The notes under the pieces are model-generated. The model was not told the origin of the DNA, ran no database searches, and saw only the letters and a program-made list of their open reading frames with translations. DNA of 64,000 bases from Raja brachyura (taxonomy: Eukaryota), in contig OY740787.1 in NCBI GenBank assembly GCA_963514005.1, positions 22,320,001-22,384,000 on the forward strand, in the 5' to 3' direction. A program made the translations under genes and the position numbers. Below are positions 55,496 to 55,669 of this stretch, piece by piece (position 1 is the first letter of the stretch; every line of letters starts with the position of its first letter).

Positions 55496-55669
55496 GAGAG
55501 AAGGAATGGGTGACGTTTCGGGTCGAGACCCTTCTTCAGACTGAAGTAGGGTCTCGACCTGAAACGTCACCCATTCCTTCTTTCCAGAGGTCCTGCCTGT
55601 CCCACTGAGTTATCCAGACTTTTGTGTCTATATTTGGTTTAAACCAGAATCTGCGGTTCCTTCCTACAA
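55496..55669. mobile_element. Young Penelope fold-back element nested in the older Penelope
   Basis: 47 bp arms (55493-55539 / 55541-55587) around a 1 nt loop; TSD cctagtcaccctg (55483-55495) / cctcgtcaccctg (55670-55682). Confidence 0.9.
55512..55539 (-). ncRNA. Minimal type I hammerhead ribozyme motif (best-preserved copy)
   Basis: The - strand reads CUGAAGA A GGGUC UC GACCC GAAAC GUC: conserved core, perfect helix II, palindromic ACGU helix III and GUC cleavage triplet. Helix I is only ~2 bp. Confidence 0.7.

What the first reader, a model, noticed from the sequence alone, without database searches (positions are those of the whole stretch)
55512..55539. Hammerhead ribozyme motif carried by the most abundant repeat in the window
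Seen: the - strand reads CUGAAGA-A-GGGUC-UC-GACCC-GAAAC-GUC. Variously decayed copies occur at about 2504-2531(-), 8819-8845(-), 9079, 18979, 22879-22906(-), 48510, 55541, 55961 and 59968. Most decayed copies have lost G12 in a CpG context (cccGaaac to cccAaaac). Established: Penelope-like elements carry minimal type I hammerheads with a palindromic helix III that cleave as dimers, and an extra A after A9 is tolerated in some natural hammerheads. Inference: this genome could hold a very large number of such motifs inside transcribed introns. Caveat: helix I here is only ~2 bp (GU/AC), so activity is uncertain.
Basis: partly seen in the sequence, partly recalled or inferred. Interest (0 to 1): 0.7.

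Follow-up and report, generated by a model that had tools for sequence, protein, structure and literature searches.

The report
Penelope retrotransposon end with minimal hammerhead
This very common short repeat is the end piece of a known kind of jumping gene (Penelope-like) in a probable shark or ray; it carries the small self-cutting RNA motif already described for such elements, and its scattered copies are likely inactive leftovers whose ends probably mark where the element's RNA starts.

Summary
The motif is real: 55512-55539(-) is an intact minimal type I hammerhead core, the only intact one in the window. The genome holds 50,608 exact and 84,121 core-intact copies. It lies in the pseudo-LTR of a 3.95-kb Neptune-type Penelope-like element (RT, CX4CX2C, GIY-YIG, predicted intron), whose nearest named proteins are from sharks and rays. 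Such motifs are known (PMC4209133). The locus is a head-to-head pair within a 13-nt target duplication; read-through RNA is predicted to fold into a long hairpin, not a ribozyme. G12 loss looks like ordinary CpG decay. Of 88 young copies, 84 reach into or across the motif, and 44 start at -8..+2 of the core, none at -40..-9. The likely reading is that the RNA starts three bases before the core and is mostly copied uncut. A small excess of starts at the cut site hints at rare cleavage. No activity or intron location was shown. This scan had noted the same family and reading many times, in this genome and others.

The parts
55512..55539 (-). Minimal type I hammerhead: CUGAAGA (55539-55533), extra A (55532), helix II 4 bp + 4-nt loop (55531-55520), GAAA (55519-55516), palindromic ACGU (55516-55513), C17 (55512); predicted cut between 55512 and 55511
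55540..55542 (-). AGU: 5' strand of the 2-bp helix I; the A (55542) is the inferred RNA start in an initiator-like CAGTCT
   Evidence: sequence; 5'-end pile-up in 88 young copies; inference
55510..55511 (-). AC: 3' strand of the 2-bp helix I
55496..55542 (-). Short inverted arm of the insertion (ends about +43 to +46 from C3)
55538..55669 (+). Long arm of the same insertion: decayed motif 55541-55568 (A9>U, C11.1>U) and pLTR to about +128, including the 35-nt tail (about 55636-55669)
55483..55495 (+). Left copy of target-site duplication (13 nt, 1 mismatch; 9-nt exact core 55487-55495)
55670..55682 (+). Right copy of target-site duplication
2455..2975 (-). Older, longer copy: GIY-YIG fragment (2975-2634) upstream of a decayed motif (2531-2504)
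   Evidence: (PF01541 E=3.5e-4, 21.3 bits, below the 22.6 cut-off)
8819..8845 (-). Decayed motif with 1-nt deletion
9077..9209 (+). Decayed pLTR arm with tail
16559..16762 (.). Head-to-head pair joined within helix II
18975..19071 (+). Decayed pLTR arm
22815..22909 (-). Decayed pLTR arm
36112..36328 (.). Head-to-head pair joined within helix II
48354..48610 (.). Head-to-head pair joined at the motif's 5' edge
55957..56041 (+). Strongly decayed pLTR arm
59826..60061 (.). Head-to-head pair with an 8-nt spacer at the motif's 5' edge

Best explanation
The motif is the minimal hammerhead in the terminal repeat (pLTR) of a very abundant Neptune-type Penelope-like retrotransposon, and this locus is a short fold-back insertion of that repeat, likely a passive leftover rather than a working ribozyme in host RNA. 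Shown: the full element is a 3.95-kb tandem unit with the motif at 0..+27, an ATG at +50, two fixed 3' ends near +94 and +129, and an RT/GIY-YIG ORF that ends about 240 nt before the next motif. Inferred: RNA polymerase II starts at the A three bases before the core. The element's RT primes at a target nick from the internal sites +94 or +129 and, in about half of the events, runs off the RNA's 5' end, which gives the 100-135-nt repeat. Inferred: priming from both target strands, one at each site, and joining of the two cDNA ends gives head-to-head pairs like this one. Inferred by analogy with the anole element: the hammerhead is a weak, dimer- and protein-dependent cutter kept by selection on active elements, probably to process element RNA, and the RNA used for insertion is mostly uncut.
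For: Element: RT (YIDD), CX4CX2C linker and C-terminal GIY-YIG upstream of the motif; tandem unit with motifs at L152 185, 4115, 8070. A predicted 122-nt GT-AG intron (L152 4276-4397) holds an in-frame stop; its removal puts the ATG in frame with the long ORF and matches the N-termini of homologues. 5' ends of 88 unique young copies found by sequence downstream of the motif: 24 long, 0 at -40..-9, 44 at -8..+2, 16 at +4..+23, 4 at +28 or later. The same wall at -4/-3 appears in older copies (40 of 119 non-long) and as loose ends at L152 4111-4113 in contigs of 4 of 4 runs laid. G just before the inferred start: 3,188 vs 3,285 A/T; G:A about 1.5 vs 40:60 at a control base; 3 of 6 G loci with a target duplication of 8 nt or more carry exactly one extra G, 0 of 8 A/T loci a single extra base. 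An untemplated G is a published sign of cap copying (PMC9341517, passages). 39 of 41 head-to-head pairs have one short and one tailed arm. Two internal RT start sites, priming on both strands, protein-assisted cleavage and use of uncut RNA are shown in vitro for an anole element (PMC11167929, parts 1-2 of 4). Decay follows CpG rates; helix II probability is 0 in read-through RNA of this locus and 0.001-0.11 in single arms.
Against: No RNA evidence for the start: only contigs were available, marked 'RNA is a guess', and the predicted splice joint was not among the joints listed (15 of 100 and 15 of 49 shown). The G excess is partly an artefact: 18 of 40 G loci are inverted junctions where the other arm can supply the G, and 4 share flanks; the A count behind the ratio is estimated from 100 listed rows. 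Base composition of fetched stretches gives G:A 0.87, which narrows the excess. The head-to-head count includes non-independent rows (4 share flanks, 2 more look alike, one locus counted twice). The short arm here ends near +45, not +94. The bases before the motif also resemble a splice acceptor. Pfam hits for RT and GIY-YIG are below the curated cut-offs. Starts exactly at the cut site are 5-8 times more common than one base upstream, so some templates may be cut.
Confidence: 0.7

Rival explanations
1. One reading: tens of thousands of dispersed motifs are active ribozymes in host pre-mRNA introns, cutting as dimers.
For: 84,121 core-intact motifs; 99 of 184 young copies keep core and helices; the family occurs in contigs of runs guessed to be RNA.
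Against: Only 7 of 84 older copies stay intact and CpG bases decay freely. Helix I is 2 bp and the hammerhead fold is not the predicted one. Paired copies are on opposite strands. Published minimal motifs show no monomer and low dimer activity (PMC4209133), and the anole motif needs the element protein (PMC11167929). Intron location was not shown.
Confidence: 0.07
2. The 5' wall is a splice acceptor (pyrimidine tract then CAG before TCTGAAG): templates are spliced RNAs and copies break at the exon junction.
For: The upstream sequence looks like an acceptor. In D. virilis Penelope the intron ends at the 5' end of helix I (PMC4209133). Exons often end in AG or G (own knowledge), which would mimic a retained AG.
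Against: Copies with a clear target duplication have mostly 0-10 extra bases and no shared upstream exon. RT has no reason to stop at a splice joint. This element's predicted intron lies downstream, at +161..+282.
Confidence: 0.12
3. The wall is an RT stall or template-switch hot spot on long read-through RNA, helped by the small palindrome CAG-T-CTG.
For: 1,042 loci have an exact fold-back junction centred on this palindrome, as this locus does; other palindromes in the motif also attract junctions.
Against: A stall at the hammerhead fold would leave ends at its 3' side, not its 5' edge. Many non-inverted copies end at the same place. No strong upstream structure is predicted.
Confidence: 0.1
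4. The repeat is a retrozyme or SINE of its own, spread from cleaved and re-ligated circular RNA.
For: Animal retrozymes derive from Penelope pLTRs (bioRxiv 2026.07.22.740005, part 1 and passages); re-ligated RNA would also give copies that span the cut site.
Against: A circle has no 5' end to give a wall at -3. Short copies match the autonomous element's pLTR and share its two 3' ends. The tandem derivatives seen lack the CUGAAGA core.
Confidence: 0.05

Closest known systems
Minimal hammerheads (min-HHR) in pLTRs of metazoan Penelope-like elements (Cervera and De la Pena 2014, PMC4209133; parts 1-2 of 4 read, supplement file 2 searched, file 1 not available)
   Same: Core, extra base after A9, G10.1-C11.1, palindromic 15.2-16.2, place in the pLTR, mostly single dispersed copies, some close pairs on opposite strands.
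   Different: Helix II is 4 bp (7-8 bp in Schistosoma, 6 in D. virilis); helix I is 2 bp as in D. virilis (4-5 bp in Schistosoma). One near-invariant sequence rather than many variable families. 84,121 intact motifs vs about 4,000 and 9,000 reported for coelacanth and Xenopus (different descriptors). No shark named in the parts read.
Neptune-clade EN+ Penelope-like elements (Craig et al. 2021, PMC8557442; passages)
   Same: RT then CX2-5CxxC linker then GIY-YIG; partial tandems, 5' truncation, inverted 5' copy, 30-40-nt tail on one end only.
   Different: Long proline-rich stretch in the N-terminal part of the ORF; very sharp 5' wall at the motif edge; near-strict pairing of one short and one tailed arm. 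Clade not tested by a tree (Nematis shares the linker).
PAc, Poseidon element of Anolis carolinensis (Frangieh et al. 2024, PMC11167929; parts 1-2 of 4)
   Same: Hammerhead near the ORF start; two internal, AC-rich RT start sites that define the tail; insertion from uncut RNA.
   Different: Other clade. Here the ATG lies 22 nt after the cut site, not inside helix II. That paper saw no strand difference between start sites in vitro, whereas genomic pairs here have one of each.
D. virilis Penelope promoter and intron (Schostak et al. 2008, PMC2377424; passages)
   Same: Internal TATA-less promoter with initiator in the pLTR; intron retained in genomic copies.
   Different: There the start lies 46 nt before a 75-nt intron that ends at helix I; here the inferred start is at helix I itself and the predicted intron lies after the motif, inside the ORF.

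Membership tests
PLE minimal type I hammerhead | CUGANGA and GAAA core with NUH cut site | tested here: met
PLE minimal type I hammerhead | Unpaired base between A9 and G10.1; G10.1-C11.1 pair | tested here: met
PLE minimal type I hammerhead | No helix III; palindromic 15.2-16.2 allowing a dimer | tested here: met
   ACGU; the dimer fold scores -12.7 kcal/mol vs -19.7 for the best alternative
PLE minimal type I hammerhead | Helix I of 4-5 bp and long helix II as in the Schistosoma families | tested here: not met
   2 bp and 4 bp; the 2-bp helix I matches the published D. virilis variant (PMC4209133)
PLE minimal type I hammerhead | Located in the pLTR of a PLE | tested here: met
PLE minimal type I hammerhead | Covariation in helix II across families | tested here: inconclusive
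   One-sided U-A to U-G changes at 10.4-11.4 and 2.1-1.1, loop changes, GUC to GUU; no two-sided change; p=0.32. No descriptor hit in 5 of 5 distant metagenome loci
PLE minimal type I hammerhead | Self-cleavage at the NUH | not testable with these tools
   Indirect hint only: excess of junctions at +28 over +27
Canonical Rfam hammerheads | Match to an Rfam hammerhead model | tested here: not met
   0 of 14 hits at E<=10
EN+ Penelope-like element | Single ORF with RT and C-terminal GIY-YIG | tested here: met
   (RVT_1 E=5.9e-5, GIY-YIG E=3.4e-4, both under the curated cut-off); 1,643 homologues at E<=1e-20
EN+ Penelope-like element | pLTR tandems, inverted 5' copy, 30-40-nt tail | tested here: met
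EN+ Penelope-like element | Retained spliceosomal intron (found in some PLEs) | tested here: inconclusive
   Predicted by frame and homology; splice joint not among those listed from contigs
Neptune clade | CX2-5CxxC motif between RT and EN | tested here: met
   CX4CX2C; shared with Nematis per PMC8557442
Neptune clade | RT phylogeny within Neptune | not tested
   No named reference PLE proteins were fetched
Non-LTR retrozyme | Same-strand tandem units, each with a complete hammerhead | tested here: not met
   This locus is an opposite-strand pair

The most novel reading that the evidence does not exclude
The hammerhead forms the first 31 bases of the element's capped mRNA, just before the start codon, and acts as a protein-gated decapping switch: once the element protein binds and brings two RNAs together, cleavage removes the cap and shuts the RNA down. 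The protein otherwise primes the two target strands from two different internal sites, and the genome's copies record this cycle, with a few per cent made from cut RNA.
Probability: 0.2. Interest if true: 0.65.

Novelty: new member of a known kind. Interest (0 to 1): 0.3.

Why it matters
The motif class is known, and the dispersed copies are probably debris. The value lies in the copy statistics. The role of hammerheads in Penelope-like elements and the origin of their inverted ends and tails are open questions (PMC8557442, PMC7761336 passages). A young family with tens of thousands of near-identical copies gives exact predictions: a capped start three bases before the core, two priming sites used one per strand, and mostly uncut templates. 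One CAGE library and one in-vitro assay could test them.

Tried and rejected
Rfam scan: no hammerhead hit. Distant homologues for covariation: 5 metagenome loci at 25-42% identity, no descriptor hit in 5 of 5. RNA evidence: only contigs were served; no start, cut or strand information, and the predicted splice joint was not among the listed joints; X3 was flagged as probably DNA. Host gene: 50 of 150 window frames of 75 aa or more scanned against Pfam; only the element's GIY-YIG fragment and one weak DUF hit; masked N stretches were not interpreted. Extended helix I: none seen in the folds. Type III reading with the GUC that overlaps C3: rejected, because ends would start at +1 and helix III would mismatch (my reasoning). 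The +20 cluster of 5' ends in old copies proved to be a 66-nt tandem derivative, not truncation. One search held duplicate loci and was replaced. One search was not used. Lunse et al. 2017 on dimer cleavage was not held; I saw only its title in a reference list. Searches that found no paper on this shark or ray family or on the 5' wall. Repbase and Dfam were not available, and bioRxiv supplements are closed; the 2026 preprint includes one chondrichthyan genome, so the family may be listed there.

Full report
Observation. The minus strand at 55539-55512 reads CUGAAGA, A, a 4-bp helix II with a CUCG loop, GAAA, CGUC. All 9 other listed copies exist. A profile search gives 27 arms in the window, the largest repeat family by number; only this copy keeps an intact core. 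The genome (2.7 Gb) has 50,608 exact copies and 84,121 matches to a core-intact pattern, with 0 for reversed controls. Four neighbouring 9.9-kb stretches hold only 6 arms, so density varies; a total of several hundred thousand arms is an extrapolation. No Rfam hammerhead model matches.

What carries it. [quoted passage not shown] A full tandem lies at G000:C1 near 38.83 Mb, with motifs at L152 185, 4115 and 8070, a unit of about 3.95 kb; those copies are frameshifted. After the motif come an ATG at +50 (C3 = 0) and a predicted 122-nt GT-AG intron at +161..+282 with an in-frame stop. Its removal links the ATG to the long frame and matches the N-termini of homologues. The nearest named proteins are from Rhincodon, Chiloscyllium, Hypanus, Stegostoma and Mobula at 63-70% identity, so the host is probably a shark or ray. 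The window itself has a GIY-YIG fragment at 2975-2634(-) ahead of the copy at 2531. This is a Neptune-type Penelope-like element by the features in PMC8557442 (passages); no tree was built.

The locus. 55496-55669 is one insertion: a plus-strand arm from 55538 to the end of the tail (+128) and a short minus-strand arm bearing the intact motif, joined at the palindrome CAG-W-CTG, within a 13-nt target duplication with one mismatch. 1,042 loci have this exact junction. A transcript through the locus is predicted to form a -89.7 kcal/mol hairpin with helix II probability 0; single arms give 0.001-0.11. The pair is therefore no dimer substrate.

Conservation. Clustering 299 aligned arms gave six subfamily consensuses, 2-17% diverged. 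The core is the same in all, apart from G12 in a 5-copy group that one search shows to be G. Five positions vary: two in loop II, 11.4 (U-A to U-G), N17 (C to U) and 1.1 (U-A to U-G). All are tolerated, none is two-sided, and the motif is not significantly more conserved than the next 58 columns (6 of 32 vs 17 of 58, p=0.32). In 84 older copies, G12 differs in 27 of 83 and other CpG bases in 16-28%; 7 of 84 stay intact against 99 of 184 young ones. That fits selection on active elements and neutral decay after insertion.

Ends of the copies. I collected 88 unique young copies by a 35-nt anchor at +45..+79, from 30 search loci and 34 fetched stretches (loci chosen by the motif or ORF were left out). 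5' ends: 24 long, 0 at -40..-9, 44 at -8..+2, 16 at +4..+23, 4 at +28 or later. 3' ends fall near +94 or +129. Old copies show the same wall (40 of 119 at -4/-3), as do loose ends in contigs of 4 of 4 runs. The wall sits at an initiator-like sequence (consensus recalled), not at the cut site. A G precedes it in 3,188 loci vs 3,285 A/T (65 A and 35 T in the 100 rows listed, counted by hand), against 40 G: 60 A at a control base (by hand). Against this, 18 of 40 fetched G loci are inverted junctions and 4 share flanks; only 6 had a target duplication of 8 nt or more, 3 with exactly one extra G, vs 0 of 8 single extra bases in the A/T class. The cap signal is therefore modest. Of 41 head-to-head pairs, 39 have one short and one tailed arm, against about 47% expected from 181 short and 109 tailed ends; several rows are not independent.

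Cleavage. Prompted by an earlier scan note (e1-9878350), I counted junctions at the cut site: 192 matches at +28 and 64 at +27. In the 30 loci fetched for each, 20 of 30 and about 7 of 30 were true junctions (I reclassed 5 'unique' rows of the +27 set as motif remnants and 1 as tandem by eye). That is roughly 110-130 vs 15-20, and about 3% of the number at -3 after allowing for the filters. There is no control at +29/+30, and interior positions nearer the 5' end have similar rates, so this is only a hint.

Mechanism. Shown: anatomy, copy numbers, end positions, decay. Inferred: start at A(-3); priming at +94 or +129; run-off at the RNA 5' end; two-strand priming giving inverted pairs. From the literature: two internal RT start sites, both strands extended, protein-assisted cleavage and insertion from uncut RNA in the anole element (PMC11167929, parts 1-2 of 4); no monomer and low dimer activity for minimal motifs (PMC4209133, parts 1-2 of 4); untemplated G as a cap sign (PMC9341517, passages); palindromic inverted junctions and one-sided tails (PMC3846280, passages). 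A start at -3 would also explain why helix I can be only 2-3 bp. Whether the copies lie in introns was not determined.

Novelty. A new member of a known kind. My searches found no paper on this family or on the 5' wall; Repbase, Dfam, Lunse et al. 2017 and preprint supplements were not seen. This scan has reported the same family and the same start-site reading many times (59 notes in this genome fit the words). My reading was written down, before those look-ups; they are not independent evidence. Interest 0.3.

Noticed in passing
L047:6119-6450, L111, L119, L122, L162, L030: A 66-nt tandem derivative of the pLTR (+20..+85) in short arrays at several loci; it lacks the CUGAAGA strand and helix II, so it spread without a ribozyme.
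   Followed up: partly
G000:C2:68771034-68771155 and other rows: A recurring 79-nt tandem unit and 576 junctions in which AG is joined directly to G5, losing C3 and U4.
   Followed up: partly
L029, L106: Tail-to-tail pairs with 19- and 33-nt spacers, again one short and one tailed arm; may be the other outcome of priming on both strands.
   Followed up: partly
L152:4276-4397: Predicted 122-nt phase-0 intron in the N-terminal coding region, retained in genomic copies.
   Followed up: partly
L085:1452-1590: The young pLTR RNA is predicted to pair its first bases with the tail, hiding the ribozyme core and bringing the +129 site next to the 5' end (z -1.5, weak).
   Followed up: no
L220, L226, L236, L237, L040: Several inverted pairs share the same flanks, so one insertion was later amplified inside a larger repeat.
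   Followed up: no
L281-L283 (G000:C2:55272472-55272631): Three 61-nt tandem units that each begin exactly at the predicted cut site.
   Followed up: no
window 55381-55445 (+): Fragment of the element's ORF C-terminus just left of the finding, next to another decayed arm at 55302-55395(-).
   Followed up: no
window 26131, 26937, 28494, 40075, 41579, 54752: About six copies of a second, SINE-like repeat; it resembles the elasmobranch HE1 SINE / HER1 LINE tail (names recalled, not tested).
   Followed up: no
about 18 kb beyond the window's end: An earlier scan note (e1-8590438) describes a different retroposon headed by an HDV-like ribozyme; not examined here.
   Followed up: no
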